Under the pieces are notes generated by a model. It was not told the origin of the DNA. It ran no database searches and saw nothing but the letters and a program-made list of their open reading frames with translations. A DNA stretch of 21,599 nucleotides from a virus (lineage: Duplodnaviria; Heunggongvirae; Uroviricota; Caudoviricetes), in IMG/VR virus record IMGVR_UViG_2695420596_000007, positions 1-21,599 of that record. One strand, 5' to 3'. Shown here piece by piece: positions 14,691-18,343 of the stretch (the first letter of the stretch is position 1; every line of letters begins with the position of its first letter). Position numbers and translations under genes: made by a program.

Positions 14691-17225
14691 ATGACGGTCT
14701 CAACCGAAGTTGACCACAACGAATACACCGGCAACGGCGTTACGACATCGTTTCCGTATACCTTCCGCATTTTCAACAAATCCGACCTGGTTGTTCAGGT
14801 GGTTGACCTTGATGAAAATATCGCTGTGCTGGCTCTTGATACTGATTACACTGTCACTGGGGCTGGTGGATATAACGGCGGTAATGTAATTCTGTCGAAG
14901 GCGTTAGCTAACGGTTATCAGATTTCTATATCACGAGAGCTACCAGTTACGCAGGAAACTGATCTGCGAAATCAGGGAAAGTTTTTCGCTGAGGTGCATG
15001 AAGACGCGTTCGATAAGTTAACGATGCTGATCCAGCAGGTTCGAAGTTGGTTTGGCCTGGCACTGCGCAAGCCATCATTTGTGGCAAACTATTACGATGC
15101 TTTGAACAATTACATCCGAAATTTGCGCGATCCTTCAAAGCCTCAAGATGCAGCAACGAAAAATTATGTTGATTCTGTTGTTGATACAAATTTAAGTAGA
15201 ACATTAAGAGTACCAGAGCCAATAAATTCTTTCCCAGGCGCCGAAACGCGGGCAAATATGATGCCTGCCTTCGATAGTCAAGGGAATGCTGTTCTGGTTC
15301 TACCCCCATCAGGTTCTGCATCGGATGTTTTGCTACAACTTGCAAGCGCCGAAGATGGGAAAGGCGATTCACTGGTTGCAGTCAGGCAACCCATTACTGG
15401 TGCTTTATCTCGCACTCAGCACGATAAAAATCAGGATTTCATCACACCACAGGACTTTGGTGTAAAGATGGATGGTACTGACTCTACTGATGCGATCAAC
15501 GCTTTCGTGGAGTATGTGAACGCGATACCTAATACTGATGGAATTCCTGTTGGAGTGCTATTCCCACCAGGTACAATCTCATATTCTAAAGACATGCATT
15601 TCACCAGACCGGTAAGAATTATCTGCGAAGGAACTGTATTCCATTACTTAGGCTCAGGAAACGCCTTTAACATGGGCCCATATGATCTAAGCGGAGACTA
15701 CAACGGAGCTACTGGTAAGACCCCGTTTAATAAGCACTACAGTATTGAAGGTGCTGTTTTTAAGGGGGGGGCAACATCAGGATATGCAATAAATTTTGCT
15801 CATTGGGTAACTTATTGCGATGTATCTAATTGCGAATTCCGTGCGTTTGGCGGAGATGGCTCCTGGGCTGTTAATGCCGAATTTAACAACTGGAGGGTAT
15901 CGGTAAGGGATTGCTTGTTCGAGGCCCATACCGATTTCATAGCTGATAGGGTGAATACACGGAACTTTGTGCGCTGCCCTGGTTACTACGAAGATCATGT
16001 TCTTGGTAAAGTTGTTGATCTTTGGAGTACATTGTTGACGGCAACAAACAATAAGGTGGAAGGTGTTGGCTGGTCGCGTGGCGGGATAGCTTACTGGATT
16101 AGCGGTTGGCGCACGGTTATTGAAGGAGGAGCAAACAATGGCATGCTTACTGATGTTATCATTTCAGCTGGTTGTGCAGATGTAACACTTCTAAATTTCT
16201 ACTCAGAGAAACCATTTGGCCCAGAGGAAGGGGAGGTAATTAAATGCATCCAGCTATCATATGATGATGACCCATATTTTACAGGCAGTAAGGCCGATGG
16301 CGGTGCCGGAATGGTTGATAATGGTGCATCTACATTTGTAAAAAGATTAACAGTAAATGGTAGTTATGCAAATATGGGGCAACCAAATCATGTCAGCCAG
16401 TTCATACACTTTTCTCAAAGTGTTGCATTGGAAAACTTCTGCATTGATAAAGCAACATTCACCCATTATTACTATCCAATTGTTACCCAGCCAGAAATAC
16501 CAGGACATCGTAATTGGTATATTGGGGATGTAAGATTTGATGGGGATTTAGATAAGATAAGCTATCTTATAGAAACTCAATATGCTGGAGTTTATAAACC
16601 ATCATATAGCTCAAGGGTAAAAAATCTTTTAAAAGTTTTTGACGCGTCATCTATAGTTACAGGTTTTGACTCATCAGCACCAGTAAATACTAATTTTGGA
16701 ACTGTCGGTATATCAGCTATATCTGATGGAACCGGAGGTTCAATAAGATTGACAAAGCGAGCAACTAATAATACCTCGGAAGGAGGATATGAACGCAACA
16801 GATTAGATATGCAAAGAAATGCTTTTCAGCTTTCGTGCATAACGCCAGCAACTAGTCAAACTTATTTACAGATGGTTTTTGAAGTTGATATTAGCCCTTC
16901 AAAAATTCAAGGAGTTACTGCTTGCTTGTCATTTATAGCAAAAAGTTACACAAGTGGAGGTGTTTTGTTAACTGGAACGATAGTTTCTCCATCTGGTATA
17001 AATACTGCAGGTGACACGGATGTACTGGTTGCGTCTGATGGAAATTTCTATAGATATTTTATACATTTCCGTGTAGAACCAATGACTTTGGGGGCGAATT
17101 TAGATTCGCCTGATAAAGTATTGGTAAACATTAATCTTCCGGTTGGTAAGGTTTTTGATGTTGACTTGGCGTCACTTGTATTTACTATAGGTGACATCGC
17201 TTATCCTTTAGCTGCATGTTACTAG
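14691..17225 (+). CDS. Tailspike / tail fibre with a T7 gp17-type N-terminal adaptor domain and a central beta-helix-like (candidate depolymerase) domain
   Basis: 844-aa ORF; N-terminus EYTGNGVTTSFPYTF..DLVVQVVD..DTDYTVTG parallels the T7 tail-fibre N-terminal domain as recalled; repetitive G/N/S/T-rich central region typical of pectate-lyase-fold tailspikes; SD GGAG. Confidence 0.8.
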   Translation: MTVSTEVDHNEYTGNGVTTSFPYTFRIFNKSDLVVQVVDLDENIAVLALDTDYTVTGAGGYNGGNVILSKALANGYQISISRELPVTQETDLRNQGKFFAEVHEDAFDKLTMLIQQVRSWFGLALRKPSFVANYYDALNNYIRNLRDPSKPQDAATKNYVDSVVDTNLSRTLRVPEPINSFPGAETRANMMPAFDSQGNAVLVLPPSGSASDVLLQLASAEDGKGDSLVAVRQPITGALSRTQHDKNQDFITPQDFGVKMDGTDSTDAINAFVEYVNAIPNTDGIPVGVLFPPGTISYSKDMHFTRPVRIICEGTVFHYLGSGNAFNMGPYDLSGDYNGATGKTPFNKHYSIEGAVFKGGATSGYAINFAHWVTYCDVSNCEFRAFGGDGSWAVNAEFNNWRVSVRDCLFEAHTDFIADRVNTRNFVRCPGYYEDHVLGKVVDLWSTLLTATNNKVEGVGWSRGGIAYWISGWRTVIEGGANNGMLTDVIISAGCADVTLLNFYSEKPFGPEEGEVIKCIQLSYDDDPYFTGSKADGGAGMVDNGASTFVKRLTVNGSYANMGQPNHVSQFIHFSQSVALENFCIDKATFTHYYYPIVTQPEIPGHRNWYIGDVRFDGDLDKISYLIETQYAGVYKPSYSSRVKNLLKVFDASSIVTGFDSSAPVNTNFGTVGISAISDGTGGSIRLTKRATNNTSEGGYERNRLDMQRNAFQLSCITPATSQTYLQMVFEVDISPSKIQGVTACLSFIAKSYTSGGVLLTGTIVSPSGINTAGDTDVLVASDGNFYRYFIHFRVEPMTLGANLDSPDKVLVNINLPVGKVFDVDLASLVFTIGDIAYPLAACY

Positions 17226-17237
17226 TTTAAATTAGTT

Positions 17238-17257
17238 AGCCCCATTTTCATGGGGCT
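17238..17257. terminator. Hairpin between the convergent tailspike and acyltransferase genes, likely a bidirectional terminator
   Basis: Stem AGCCCCA/TGGGGCT with a 6-nt loop, flanked by AT-rich sequence. Confidence 0.5.
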
Positions 17258-17262
17258 GTAAC

Positions 17263-18343
17263 TTAAACGTATCTTTTTCTTAATGAAAGGAATGGTTTTT
17301 CAATAAGTTCAAATGTAAATTTAGAAAAAACAAGTATTAATGATAGTATTATTACAAAATTACATACTGCATTTATGTTTTGACCACTAGTTATGTTTAG
17401 TATCCCTATGTTTTTATGAAAAGAATACAATATTATTGAGTGCAAAATATAAGTTGAAAAACTTAAATCTCCTAGCCTACTAAGTGTAAAATCAATTGCT
17501 TTTGGTATTTTAATTTCGCAGCAGGCGTAACTTATAATGAATAACCCCCATATTATCGCTTCTACATATGAAAGTGTAGACGTGAATGGGTCTGCTAAGT
17601 ACCACATTCCGATCTCATGTAGATAAGTTTGCCCTAAAAAAACAAAAAATAAAGAAATTAATAATAACCACTTGCTTGCGAACAAACTACTATAATTACA
17701 GTAAAAATAACCAAATAATATGCCAATTAGAAATTGGTCTAGTCTGCCAAGCATAGTTAGATAGAAGTAATGTGTTTGCATCATGCCTACAGAAGTTAGA
17801 GAGTCCCTGAAAAATGAAACAATAAGGAGCCTCCAGCACACCCAGAATAACGATAGTAGAATTATATACTTGATCCCAAATTTCTTTAGAAACAAAACAA
17901 GTAATGGAAAAATTAGATAAAATTGCAATTCAACGGCTATTGTCCATGTTTGACCGAAATAAGTAAGTAATGGAGAAGTTTGTAGATTTGAAAAAAAATA
18001 ATATCGATAGAGCATCATTAACTGTTGCTGTACCTCTCGCAAGAGACATCGCAGTTATCCATACCAAAATTAAAAGAGGAAATATCCTAACTATTCTATT
18101 AAATATGAAAGTTTTATAATCAATGTGCTTATTACCAGCTTTAGAGATAACAGTGAATAAAAAGCCACTAAGCACAAGAAATAAAGACACGCCGGTGTCA
18201 CCAGAAAGCAAGAAGCGTATAACATAATTATCGGATAGTTTGCCACCAAAAGTTGTATAGGTGTGCACAAAAACCACCATCGATGCCGCAAAAAAACGTA
18301 TATGGTCAAGCCTGGAAATGTATGCTGAATTTAGGCTTTTCAT
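17263..18343 (-). pseudogene. Acyltransferase-3 family (O-antigen acetyltransferase-like) integral membrane protein, split by a +1/-1 frameshift at a homopolymeric tract
   Basis: ORFs 17930-18343 and 17263-18042 are the N- and C-terminal parts of one acyltransferase-3 protein; the family motif WTIAVELQFY lies in the downstream frame; frames switch at the A8 run 17991-17998; AT-rich region. Confidence 0.7.
17991..17998. repeat. Homopolymeric A8 (T8 on the coding strand) tract at the acyltransferase frameshift site
   Basis: Read directly; removing one base joins the two reading frames. Confidence 0.8.

What the first reader, a model, noticed from the sequence alone, without database searches (positions are those of the whole stretch)
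14691..18343. Host-range module: T7-adaptor tailspike coupled to a surface-polysaccharide-modifying gene
The tailspike joins a T7 gp17-like N-terminal particle-binding domain to a long beta-helix-like body, suggesting a polysaccharide depolymerase. It is followed, convergently, by the acyltransferase. A receptor-degrading enzyme placed next to an enzyme that modifies surface polysaccharide (presumably the same receptor) implies lysogenic conversion that blocks superinfection by related phages. The placement after the antirepressors echoes the P22 ant - gene 9 - conversion-gene order.
Basis: partly seen in the sequence, partly recalled or inferred. Interest (0 to 1): 0.45.

Follow-up and report, generated by a model that had tools for sequence, protein, structure and literature searches.

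The report
Decayed O71 tailspike–acetyltransferase prophage cassette
This is an ordinary, already well-understood kind of prophage module: a tailspike that probably cuts the host's O71-type surface sugar chain, followed by an enzyme that probably alters that chain to keep related phages out, but here the enzyme gene is broken by one extra base and the prophage has lost its head and tail genes.

Summary
The window is an E. coli phiV10/epsilon15-like (Uetakevirus) prophage beside yfgI. It carries an 844-aa tailspike (14691-17225, +), then, convergently, an acyltransferase-3 (AT3) gene (17263-18343, -), then the lysis genes. This is the gene order of phiV10, whose Oac acetylates O157 antigen and gives superinfection immunity.

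- The AT3 gene is split by a +1 frameshift. It has T8 at 17991-17998, where every other copy has an in-frame T7 or T5CT.
- The prophage is defective. About 20 kb is deleted, covering terminase through internal virion proteins, with the junction at ~9118-9121.
- The unit that moves is window 15414-18356: tailspike aa 242-844, a hairpin, and the AT3 gene. It is 90-95% identical in P22-like prophages of E. coli and Salmonella. A second allele, pairing an 81%-identical receptor-binding domain with an unrelated AT3, also occurs in both phage lineages.

Verdict: a new, decayed member of a known kind. Activity and superinfection blocking are inferred, not shown.

The parts
14691..17225 (+). Tailspike gene, 844 aa, intact
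   Evidence: ORF. GGAG ribosome-binding site. PHROG tail families. Identical protein in two other E. coli assemblies, L007 and L008.
14691..15413 (+). Lineage-specific N-terminal part (aa 1-241). It comprises the particle-binding anchor (aa 1-~130), a helical neck, and a linker ending at the conserved KGD..RTQHDKN motif.
   Evidence: 83-93% DNA identity to the tailspike 5' ends of phiV10-like phages and prophages. PDB phmmer hit to the N-terminal domain of Klebsiella phage Dpo31/Dpo36, E 4e-26. PF03906 Phage_T7_tail scores only 18.6 bits against a cut-off of 25.2. Relatives at 57-64% identity carry PF03906.
15414..18356 (.). Mobile host-range cassette. It holds tailspike aa 242-844, a 37-nt spacer with a hairpin, the AT3 gene and 13 nt upstream of its ATG.
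   Evidence: One ungapped block apart from the T-run. It is 95.0% identical to the E. coli P22-like prophage L015 and 90-91% identical to the P22-like loci L010-L014 found with the Salmonella Cotham AT3 protein. The flanks are unrelated. GC is 37% against 48.5% for the rest of the prophage.
15471..16550 (+). Right-handed parallel beta-helix (about aa 261-620), the putative O-antigen-binding and cleaving domain
16665..17189 (+). C-terminal beta-sandwich domain (about aa 659-833), resembling a carbohydrate-binding module
   Evidence: Model strands 459-633. Foldseek local hits to CBM4, CBM11 and CBM22 modules, target TM-score 0.52-0.63.
17225..17268 (.). Hairpin between the two convergent stop codons, probably a bidirectional terminator. 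The core stem is at 17237-17258.
   Evidence: Folds at -18.2 kcal/mol, z = -3.5, and 0 of 200 shuffles fold as well. The sequence is conserved in MSB1_9I.
17263..18343 (-). Acyltransferase-3 (AT3) gene, a putative O-antigen O-acetyltransferase, disrupted by a +1 frameshift
   Evidence: Two ORFs, each matching a different part of Pfam PF01757. The repaired 359-aa product matches PHROG 3333 'O-acetyltransferase' at E 2e-39. It is 97% identical to the intact L007 protein and 91% to the Salmonella one.
17991..17998 (-). T8 homopolymer (gene nt 346-353), the frameshift site
   Evidence: T8 in the window, L005 and L006. T7 in L007, L008 and L010-L014. T5CT in L001 and L015.
13270..14513 (-). Upstream neighbours. 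These are an AntA-family antirepressor (13270-13920), C4 antisense RNA (13970-14054), isrK RNA (14079-14155) and a 91-aa ORF (14238-14513) paralogous to the antirepressor's C-terminus.
   Evidence: Pfam AntA E 7e-28. Rfam C4 at 61 bits and isrK at 68 bits, both above gathering score. BLASTP 45% identity, E 3e-21.
9118..9121 (.). Deletion junction that makes the prophage defective. Sequence matching phiV10 up to 35674 is joined to sequence matching phiV10 from 16341.
   Evidence: BLAST of the window against the whole phiV10 genome. ORF 9003-9632 is a fusion: PHROG 250/492 at the N-terminus and the PHROG 1145 C-terminus (positions 415-594 of 594). The same junction appears in an independent Logan assembly.

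Best explanation
This is a phiV10/Sf6-type host-range and lysogenic-conversion module carried by an epsilon15-like (Uetakevirus) prophage of E. coli, probably specific for the O71 / Salmonella O28 type of O-antigen.

In an intact phage the module would work in three steps.
1. The tailspike trimer is fixed to the tail by its lineage-specific N-terminal anchor.
2. Its beta-helix body, with the C-terminal sandwich, binds and cleaves the O-antigen so that the virion reaches the outer membrane. The reported O71 backbone (Qui3NAc-Rha-Gal-GalNAc) has no uronic acid, which argues for hydrolysis rather than lyase action.
3. After lysogeny the membrane AT3 enzyme, encoded convergently just downstream, O-acetylates the same O-antigen. 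It then becomes a poor substrate for that tailspike, and related phages are excluded.

The receptor-binding part of the tailspike and the AT3 gene form one 2.94-kb cassette. It is exchanged as a block between P22-like and epsilon15-like phages by recombination at a conserved linker motif (RTQHDKN).

In this particular strain the module is decaying. The AT3 gene carries a one-base insertion (T7 to T8) that separates the N-terminal third, which holds both acyl-CoA-binding motifs, from the rest. The prophage has also lost about 20 kb, including terminase, portal, capsid and most tail genes. The tailspike cannot be built into a virion by this element alone, and O-antigen conversion is probably off.

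What is shown: gene identities, fold, synteny, frameshift, deletion, cassette boundaries and the O71 association. What is inferred: enzymatic cleavage, the acetylation target, and superinfection exclusion.
For: - Synteny: the window is collinear with phiV10, including tailspike(+), oac(-), holins, endolysin and Rz. The phiV10 Oac is annotated as acetylating the O-antigen and acting in superinfection immunity (PMC9558356; PMC10408124).
- AT3 identity: Pfam PF01757 is matched on both fragments and PHROG 'O-acetyltransferase' at E 2e-39. The R16-x10-H27 and R83-x-x-R86 motifs, which the AT3 review calls essential, are visible in the translation. Intact alleles are under purifying selection, dN/dS 0.05-0.09.
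- Linkage: block 15414-18356 is 90-95% identical in P22-like prophages of E. coli and Salmonella, with unrelated flanks. A second allele, an 81%-identical receptor-binding domain with an unrelated 349-aa AT3, is shared at 97.2% over 2935 bp between a P22-like and a Uetakevirus-like locus, with the same left junction. A 58%-identical receptor-binding domain in E. fergusonii is followed by gtrA, gtrB and a possible gtrC (no Pfam hit) instead.
- Receptor: the only three complete E. coli genomes with this receptor-binding domain all carry the O71 wzx/wzy cluster. That cluster is present in 11 of 5426 genomes, giving hypergeometric P = 6e-9. The AT3 cluster is named from Salmonella serovars Cotham and Teltow; that these are O28 rests on my knowledge of the Kauffmann-White scheme. 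O71, Salmonella O28 and Aeromonas veronii O16 share one backbone, and O71 is distinguished by non-stoichiometric O-acetylation of Gal (PMC3967211). In the phage collection searched, the only record with a full-length receptor-binding-domain homologue is an Aeromonas phage (37% identity). Among the nearest AT3 relatives outside the enteric cluster are Aeromonas salmonicida and Morganella proteins, at about 60% identity.
- Decay: T8 in the window against T7 or T5CT everywhere else. The deletion is shown.
Against: - No enzymatic activity, acetylation site or exclusion phenotype can be tested here.
- Catalytic residues of the beta-helix were not identified.
- The O type of the window's own host was not determined. 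The O71 link comes from three other E. coli genomes, and two of them (TB06053, MB46) may be related.
- The AT3 has no significant pairwise similarity to phiV10 Oac, so the functional analogy rests on family, position and co-transfer.
- That T8 is a true mutation rests on two assemblies that are probably built from the same reads.
Confidence: 0.7

Rival explanations
1. The T-run is a working switch rather than a lesion. Slipped-strand mispairing (T7 to T8 and back), or transcriptional slippage on U8, would turn O-antigen acetylation off and on. The window's strain would then be a phase-OFF variant, or a low-level expresser, of a functional conversion gene.
For: - The frameshift lies exactly in a homopolymer. 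The AT3 5' part otherwise differs from the in-frame L007 allele by only one SNP.
- Other AT3 genes are phase variable: H. influenzae oafA by repeats and Salmonella oafB epigenetically (PMC9558356).
- From general knowledge, RNA polymerase slippage becomes appreciable at runs of about 8-9 A or T.
Against: - Only one strain of all those sampled has T8.
- The tract is not conserved as a pure run, because the MSB1_9I and L015 alleles have T5CT.
- The gene is 32% GC and has four other T6-T7 runs, so such tracts follow from its composition.
- The same prophage carries a large deletion, which fits general decay.
- A T7/T8 tract is short for a contingency locus.
Confidence: 0.1
2. The AT3 is an unrelated moron that acylates some other envelope glycan, such as colanic acid, ECA, peptidoglycan or LPS core. 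Its position next to the tailspike would only reflect a permissive insertion slot at the end of the late operon.
For: - AT3 proteins act on many substrates (PMC9558356).
- No family search gave substrate-level resolution (NCBIfam found nothing).
- The slot behind the tailspike is highly variable in these phages (another prophage has only a 91-aa ORF there; PMC10408124).
Against: - The receptor-binding domain and the AT3 move together with identical junctions in two unrelated phage lineages, and do so in two different allelic pairs.
- Where the receptor-binding domain diverges further, the slot holds gtrA and gtrB, the known O-antigen glucosylation genes.
- Experimentally characterised genes in the same slot (phiV10 oac, Sf6 oac) modify O-antigen.
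- O71 O-antigen is reported to be O-acetylated, and the only acyltransferase annotated in the O71 cluster is a small 156-aa protein. I infer it is the Qui3N N-acetyltransferase.
Confidence: 0.1
3. The frameshift and/or the deletion are assembly or sequencing artefacts, and the prophage and AT3 are in fact intact in the source strain.
For: - Homopolymers are classic error sites.
- The two assemblies that agree (NCBI CXZG01000010.1 and Logan ERR124658) may derive from the same read set.
Against: - Two different assemblers give 100% identical sequence over 12.9 kb, including both T8 and the deletion junction.
- From general knowledge, the ERR accession suggests Illumina data, where 8-nt homopolymer consensus errors are uncommon.
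- The deletion junction forms a clean fusion ORF with 4-bp overlap.
Confidence: 0.08
4. The tailspike binds the O-antigen without cleaving it, or it removes a substituent rather than cutting the backbone. The AT3 would then act by blocking binding, or would even create the preferred receptor.
For: - No catalytic residues were identified.
- Receptor-binding-domain residues 1-195 show 30% identity to a tail spike of the G7C-like phage St11Ph5. From general knowledge, G7C-like phages include O-antigen deacetylases.
Against: - Characterised P22-like, Sf6, HK620 and epsilon15-type tailspikes are endoglycosidases (and general knowledge).
- Acidic residues in the beta-helix are invariant across a family that diverges to 37% identity: D443, D488, E506, D527, E602 and D617 in protein numbering.
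- From general knowledge, known deacetylase tailspikes use an SGNH fold, not a beta-helix.
Confidence: 0.12

Closest known systems
Escherichia phage phiV10 (Uetakevirus): tailspike PhiV10p25 with convergent oac (PhiV10p26), Perry et al. 2009
   Same: The phage backbone is the same, at 91-98% DNA identity over integrase, early, p20 and lysis genes. The order is the same: antirepressor-like genes(-), tailspike(+), AT3(-), holins, endolysin, Rz. The tailspike N-terminal anchor is the same, at 83-85% DNA identity. The proposed logic is the same: the AT3 acetylates the O-antigen that the tailspike uses.
   Different: The receptor-binding domain and the AT3 are different genes. There is no DNA match past window 15224 and no significant BLASTP match between the two AT3 proteins. 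Specificity is probably O71/O28 rather than O157. Here the AT3 is frameshifted and the prophage has a ~20-kb deletion.
Shigella phage Sf6 (P22-like): tailspike gene 14, then oac, then int
   Same: The P22-like carriers of this same cassette have the Sf6 arrangement of tailspike, then AT3, then int. Tailspike aa 202-282 align with Sf6 tailspike residues 107-193 across the KGD..RTQHDKN linker (E 1e-8). Sf6 Oac blocks the Sf6 endorhamnosidase (PMC9558356).
   Different: The window's copy sits on an epsilon15-type anchor, not a P22 head-binding domain. The beta-helix body has no detectable sequence similarity to Sf6 beyond the linker.
Salmonella phage P22 / BTP1: immI (mnt-arc-ant), then gene 9 tailspike, then gtrABC
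   Same: The conversion genes sit directly behind the tailspike. A 58%-identical relative of this receptor-binding domain in E. fergusonii is followed by gtrA, gtrB and a possible gtrC. Modification protects against the tailspike (BTP1).
   Different: The chemistry is acetylation by a single AT3 rather than glucosylation by GtrABC. The window's antirepressor is AntA-type and is preceded by C4 and isrK RNAs, as in P1-like immI, not mnt-arc-ant.
Receptor-binding-domain exchange between Lederbergvirus and Uetakevirus tailspikes (Virol J 2023, PMC10408124)
   Same: The anchor is conserved within a genus, the receptor-binding domain is exchanged across genera and tracks the host O serogroup, and an O-antigen modification gene may sit behind the receptor-binding protein.
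   Different: That study does not mention O71 or acyltransferases. It reports no conserved recombination motif for these two genera. Here the junction falls in a conserved RTQHDKN-coding stretch, and the exchanged block includes the AT3 gene.

Membership tests
Acyltransferase-3 (Pfam PF01757) O-antigen O-acetyltransferases (Oac / OafA type) | Match to the AT3 profile above Pfam's gathering score | tested here: met
   51.4 bits (profile 3-91) and 50.7 bits (profile 96-321) against a cut-off of 31, on the two fragments. The repaired protein matches PHROG 3333 'O-acetyltransferase' at E 2e-39.
Acyltransferase-3 (Pfam PF01757) O-antigen O-acetyltransferases (Oac / OafA type) | R/K-X10-H motif in TM1 and RXXR motif in the first cytoplasmic loop, described as essential in PMC9558356 | tested here: met
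   R16-x10-H27 and R83-I-V-R86 were read directly in the translation.
Acyltransferase-3 (Pfam PF01757) O-antigen O-acetyltransferases (Oac / OafA type) | One uninterrupted reading frame of about 340-380 aa | tested here: not met
   A +1 frameshift at T8 (17991-17998) splits the gene into 137-aa and 259-aa ORFs. The feature is met in L007, L008, L001 and L010-L015, all 359 aa.
Acyltransferase-3 (Pfam PF01757) O-antigen O-acetyltransferases (Oac / OafA type) | O-acetylation of an O-antigen sugar | not testable with these tools
   Indirect only: co-transfer with an O71-associated receptor-binding domain and reported O-acetylation of Gal in O71.
Tailspike depolymerases with a right-handed parallel beta-helix (P22 gp9 / Sf6 / HK620 / CBA120 TSP type) | Pectin-lyase-like right-handed beta-helix body | tested here: met
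Tailspike depolymerases with a right-handed parallel beta-helix (P22 gp9 / Sf6 / HK620 / CBA120 TSP type) | N-terminal particle-binding anchor shared with phages of the same genus | tested here: met
   83-93% DNA identity to the 5' ends of phiV10-like tailspike genes. PHROG 1640 'tail protein' at E 6e-152 over aa 1-239.
Tailspike depolymerases with a right-handed parallel beta-helix (P22 gp9 / Sf6 / HK620 / CBA120 TSP type) | Homotrimer, with acidic catalytic residues in a substrate groove and glycan cleavage | not testable with these tools
   Only a monomer was modelled. Invariant acidic residues exist but were not placed in a groove.
Phage T7 tail fibre N-terminal domain (Pfam PF03906, gp17-like) | Match to PF03906 at or above the gathering score | tested here: inconclusive
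   18.6 bits against a cut-off of 25.2, E 0.0016, covering only aa 10-56. Klebsiella relatives at 57-64% identity carry precomputed PF03906 hits. A profile search of the PDB found the Dpo31/Dpo36 N-terminal domain (E 2e-31) but not T7 gp17. The AF2 model of aa 1-200 was too poor to use (pLDDT 54).
phiV10-type tailspike / Oac superinfection-immunity module | Convergent AT3 gene immediately 3' of the tailspike and 5' of the lysis cassette, in a Uetakevirus backbone | tested here: met
   The spacer is 37 nt and contains a hairpin.
phiV10-type tailspike / Oac superinfection-immunity module | Orthology of the AT3 to phiV10 Oac | tested here: not met
   BLASTP best E 0.065. It occupies the same slot and belongs to the same Pfam family, but it is a different lineage.
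Simple-sequence contingency (phase-variable) locus | Tract-length polymorphism recurring among isolates, and conservation of an uninterrupted tract | tested here: not met
   T8 occurs in one strain only. T7 occurs in seven loci. The tract is interrupted (T5CT) in two alleles. The sample is small, so this is weak negative evidence.

The most novel reading that the evidence does not exclude
O71-type hosts carry at least two allelic cassettes. Cassette A is the window's receptor-binding domain with a 359-aa AT3. Cassette B is an 81%-identical receptor-binding domain, diverging mainly after about aa 766, with an unrelated 349-aa AT3. Each cassette is shuttled intact between P22-like and epsilon15-like phages.

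The most novel reading is an arms race fought with two different acetylation patterns of one O-antigen. Each tailspike variant would tolerate, or evade, the mark laid down by the other cassette. Cassette A's AT3 would be the so far unassigned gene behind the non-stoichiometric Gal O-acetylation that distinguishes E. coli O71 from Salmonella O28 and Aeromonas O16. The slip-prone T7 run would give occasional OFF variants such as this strain.
Probability: 0.2. Interest if true: 0.5.

Novelty: new member of a known kind. Interest (0 to 1): 0.3.

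Why it matters
If the inference holds, the cassette names a tailspike and a matching O-acetyltransferase for the O71 / Salmonella O28 O-antigen. I found no characterised phage or tailspike for this serogroup in the literature searched. O71 includes enterohaemorrhagic strains (O71:H12, cited).

Possible uses:
- The receptor-binding domain (aa 242-844) could be used for serogroup detection or for retargeting tailocins.
- The AT3 is a candidate for the reported O71 acetylation, which gene-cluster-based serotyping would miss.

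The clean co-transfer of receptor-binding domain and modification gene as one block, in two alleles and two phage genera, illustrates a principle that is already accepted.

Tried and rejected
- Pfam and NCBIfam on the full tailspike gave nothing useful. The only Pfam hit was a spurious sub-threshold PglL_A match.
- The AF2 model of the N-terminal 200 aa had pLDDT 54, so I did not use it and did not spend the third fold search on it.
- A profile search of the PDB with 14 N-terminal homologues did not reach T7 gp17. The 'T7-adaptor' label therefore stays a weak, transitive inference.
- A pattern scan of IMG/VR viral contigs for the T-run flanks found no match, so tract-length statistics rest on 12 loci only.
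- I considered programmed ribosomal frameshifting and rejected it. The downstream frame needs a +1 shift, while a U-run favours -1, and every relative is simply in frame.
- I considered Dam/OxyR-type epigenetic phase variation, as in gtr and oafB. Only one GATC lies upstream of the AT3 (sequence), so there is no such signature.
- I could not read Hu et al. 2010 on O71/O28, which is not held. The O71/O28/Aeromonas O16 structures are taken second-hand from PMC3967211.
- I could not type the O-antigen of the window's own host. Look-ups are restricted to window proteins and earlier hits.
- The metagenome and genome-contig scans and the representative-protein search were left unused, as not needed.

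Full report
**What the window is.** The window is 100% identical to E. coli assembly GCA_001283165.1, contig CXZG01000010.1, and to a Logan assembly of run ERR124658. The tailspike protein carries E. coli names in public records. BLAST against the whole phiV10 genome shows a phiV10/epsilon15-like (Uetakevirus) prophage. Integrase lies at 1-1257, early genes on the minus strand, and replication genes follow. Then come virion protein p20 (9638-12112), the tailspike, the AT3 gene, two holins, a GH19 endolysin and Rz (to 20311). The chromosomal genes yfgI and yfgH occupy 20529-21599.

**The observation.** The 844-aa ORF at 14691-17225 (+) is a genuine tailspike gene.
- It has a GGAG ribosome-binding site.
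- Its first ~240 residues match many phage tail-protein families (PHROG E down to 6e-152).
- Residues 1-129 align with the N-terminal domain of the solved Klebsiella phage depolymerases Dpo31/Dpo36 (E 4e-26).

The acyltransferase is at 17263-18343 on the minus strand, convergent as described. A 37-nt spacer separates the two stop codons. It folds into a strong hairpin (-18.2 kcal/mol, z -3.5), probably a bidirectional terminator.

The gene is not intact. It reads as two overlapping ORFs of 137 and 259 aa. These match profile positions 3-91 and 96-321 of Pfam Acyl_transf_3, each at about 51 bits against a cut-off of 31. Alignment with the intact homologue in E. coli MSB1_9I places the lesion in a T-run. 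The window has T8 at 17991-17998 (gene nt 346-353). Two other E. coli isolates (L007, L008) encode the identical 844-aa tailspike and have T7 with an intact 359-aa product. Five P22-like loci found with the Salmonella Cotham protein have T7, and two more E. coli loci have T5CT. Deleting one T restores a 359-aa protein that is 97% identical to L007's.

**The prophage is defective.** The window is collinear with phiV10 except for one jump. Sequence matching phiV10 up to 35674 is followed directly by sequence matching phiV10 from 16341, with a 4-bp overlap at window 9118-9121. Everything from the late-early genes through terminase, portal, protease, major capsid, tail and internal virion proteins to the middle of p19 is missing, about 20 kb. 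ORF 9003-9632 is the resulting fusion. Its first ~69 residues match the N-termini of PHROG families 250 and 492. Residues 37-209 match the C-terminal end of the p19 family (PHROG 1145, positions 415-594 of 594). L007 and L008 keep full-length p18 and p19. The tailspike differs from L007's by only two synonymous changes, so the decay is recent.

**Anatomy of the tailspike.**
- Residues 1-241 are lineage-specific, at 83-93% DNA identity to other phiV10-like tailspike genes.
- The claimed similarity to T7 gp17 is weak. PF03906 scores 18.6 bits against a cut-off of 25.2, over residues 10-56 only. Klebsiella relatives at 57-64% identity do carry PF03906. A profile search of the PDB did not reach T7 gp17, and the AF2 model of this part was unusable.
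- Residues 202-282 align with Sf6 tailspike 107-193 across a KGD..RTQHDKN linker.
- An AF2 model of residues 201-844, built from 16 homologues, has mean pLDDT 75. It shows a right-handed beta-helix (about aa 261-620) followed by a beta-sandwich (about aa 659-833).
- Foldseek ranks CBA120 TSP4, K2-2 TSP, Sf6 and HK620 tailspikes first, and matches the C-terminal domain to CBM4/11/22 modules.

The fold is the expected one, but activity itself is not shown.

**The mobile unit.** DNA comparison with loci fetched through the AT3 and receptor-binding-domain homologues gives sharp boundaries. Window 15414-18356 (2943 bp) forms one block. It is 95.0% identical to an E. coli P22-like prophage (L015), and 90-91% identical to five P22-like loci (L010-L014) found with the Salmonella Cotham protein. 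One of these is a Salmonella assembly and the rest are sequencing-run assemblies. The flanks are unrelated.

In those phages the tailspike has a P22 head-binding domain (PF09008). The order is mnt, arc, ant, tailspike, AT3, int, then argW.

The left junction falls at codon 242 (codon 152 in the P22-like protein). DNA identity starts inside the RTQHDKN-coding stretch there. The right junction is 13 nt upstream of the AT3 start codon. A remnant holding only tailspike aa 413-844 plus an intact AT3 sits beside intS and argW in E. coli MSB1_9I.

A second allele exists. It pairs a receptor-binding domain 81% identical overall with an unrelated 349-aa AT3 (24% identity). DNA similarity between the two alleles ends near window 16988, about aa 766. 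This allele is shared at 97.2% over 2935 bp between the P22-like prophage of TB06053 and a Uetakevirus-like contig (L024), with the same left junction. A 58%-identical receptor-binding domain in E. fergusonii is followed by gtrA, gtrB and a possible gtrC (no Pfam hit).

The cassette has 37% GC and the AT3 gene 32%, against 48.5% for the rest of the prophage. Intact AT3 alleles show dN/dS of 0.05-0.09. They also recombine with each other: 53 of the 56 differences between the window and L007 across the two genes cluster in 17278-17916.

**Which receptor.** Only three of 5426 complete E. coli genomes contain this receptor-binding domain. All three (MSB1_9I, TB06053, MB46) carry wzx and wzy genes that PGAP names 'O71 family'. 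O71 wzy is present in only 11 of the 5426 genomes. The hypergeometric P is 6e-9, or 4e-6 if TB06053 and MB46 are counted once.

The AT3 cluster is named from Salmonella serovars Cotham and Teltow. That both are serogroup O28 rests on my own knowledge of the Kauffmann-White scheme. One search is consistent with this but not explicit. A paper title cited reports a close relationship between the E. coli O71 and Salmonella O28 O-antigens.

PMC3967211 states that O71, Salmonella Dakar O28 and Aeromonas veronii O16 share the backbone Qui3NAc-Rha-Gal-GalNAc. [quoted passage not shown]

In the phage collection searched, the only record with a full-length homologue of this receptor-binding domain is an Aeromonas phage (37% identity). 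The AT3's relatives at about 60% identity include Aeromonas salmonicida and Morganella proteins. This supports, but does not prove, that tailspike and AT3 act on the same O71/O28-type O-antigen. The backbone has no uronic acid, so if it is the substrate, cleavage would be hydrolytic.

**How it most likely works, and what is inferred.** Shown here are the gene identities, the fold, the AT3 motifs, the synteny with phiV10, the cassette boundaries, the O71 association, the frameshift and the deletion. The AT3 motifs are R16-x10-H27 and R83xxR86, defined.

Inferred from characterised analogues (phiV10 Oac, Sf6 Oac, BTP1 GtrC):
- The tailspike cleaves the O-antigen.
- The AT3 acetylates that O-antigen.
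- The modification blocks the tailspike and so excludes related phages.

In this strain the AT3 is cut after about residue 117. The N-terminal fragment keeps both acyl-CoA-binding motifs but loses most of the AT3 domain (Pfam profile positions ~96-321), and the prophage cannot make particles. The module is most likely inactive.

**Rivals.**
- A phase-variable or slippage-rescued T-run cannot be excluded but is not favoured. T8 is seen in one strain only, the tract is interrupted in other alleles, the gene is AT-rich with several similar runs, and the prophage shows other decay.
- An assembly artefact is unlikely, because two assemblers agree, though probably on the same reads.
- An AT3 that acts on some other glycan is hard to reconcile with block transfer in two allelic pairs across two phage genera.

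**Comparison with what is known, and verdict.** The arrangement is that of phiV10 on the same backbone, and of Sf6 for the P22-like carriers. The general rules have been published (PMC10408124). These are that receptor-binding domains are exchanged between Lederberg- and Uetakeviruses, that they track the O serogroup, and that an O-antigen modification gene may sit behind the receptor-binding protein.

New here:
- the probable O71/O28 specificity;
- a receptor-binding domain with no close relative among sequenced phages;
- an AT3 unrelated in sequence to phiV10 Oac;
- transfer of receptor-binding domain and AT3 as one block, in two alleles;
- the decayed state of this copy.

This is a new member of a known kind, of modest interest.

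Noticed in passing
window 9003-9632, junction ~9118-9121: The prophage has lost about 20 kb relative to phiV10, from phiV10 35674 through the genome end and start to 16341. The loss covers terminase, portal, capsid, tail and internal virion proteins, and creates an in-frame fusion ORF of 209 aa. Sister isolates L007 and L008 keep the structural genes.
   Followed up: yes
window 13970-14054 (-) and 14079-14155 (-): Rfam C4 antisense RNA (61 bits) and isrK Hfq-binding RNA (68 bits) lie in tandem, directly upstream of the AntA-family antirepressor gene (13270-13920, -). This suggests P1/P7 immI-like or Gifsy IsrK-like RNA control of the antirepressor, rather than P22 mnt-arc.
   Followed up: partly
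window 14238-14513 (-) vs 13270-13920 (-): The 91-aa ORF just upstream of the tailspike (a phiV10p24 / epsilon15p19 homologue) is 45% identical (E 3e-21) to the C-terminal ~80 residues of the AntA antirepressor. It looks like a free-standing copy of the antirepressor's C-terminal domain. Its function is unknown.
   Followed up: partly
window 17278-17916: Against the otherwise near-identical L007 prophage, 53 of the 56 differences across the two genes fall in the 3' two-thirds of the AT3 gene. In that stretch the window instead resembles the MSB1_9I allele. AT3 alleles therefore recombine with each other inside the gene.
   Followed up: partly
L003 (E. coli TB06053) 6001-8933 and L024 4724-7654: A second cassette allele, an 81%-identical receptor-binding domain with an unrelated 349-aa AT3, is also shared between a P22-like and a Uetakevirus-like element and also sits in O71 hosts. 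The two receptor-binding domains diverge mainly after about aa 766.
   Followed up: partly
L021 (E. fergusonii GCA_020168615.1) 4001-8732: A 58%-identical receptor-binding domain on a P22 head-binding anchor is followed by gtrA, gtrB and a 385-aa possible gtrC (no Pfam hit) instead of an AT3. Salmonella Dakar O28 is reported to carry a Glc side branch (PMC3967211), which such genes could add.
   Followed up: no
window 12122-13176: Between virion gene p20 and the antirepressor, the window carries three small ORFs absent from phiV10: 137 aa (+), a 110-aa hydrophobic (probably membrane) protein (-) and 62 aa (-). They match only PHROG families of unknown function and may be a moron.
   Followed up: partly
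L020 (E. coli MB46) 20237-21213: In MB46, an O71 strain that carries the cassette-B prophage, the O-antigen chain-length regulator wzzB is annotated as frameshifted.
   Followed up: no
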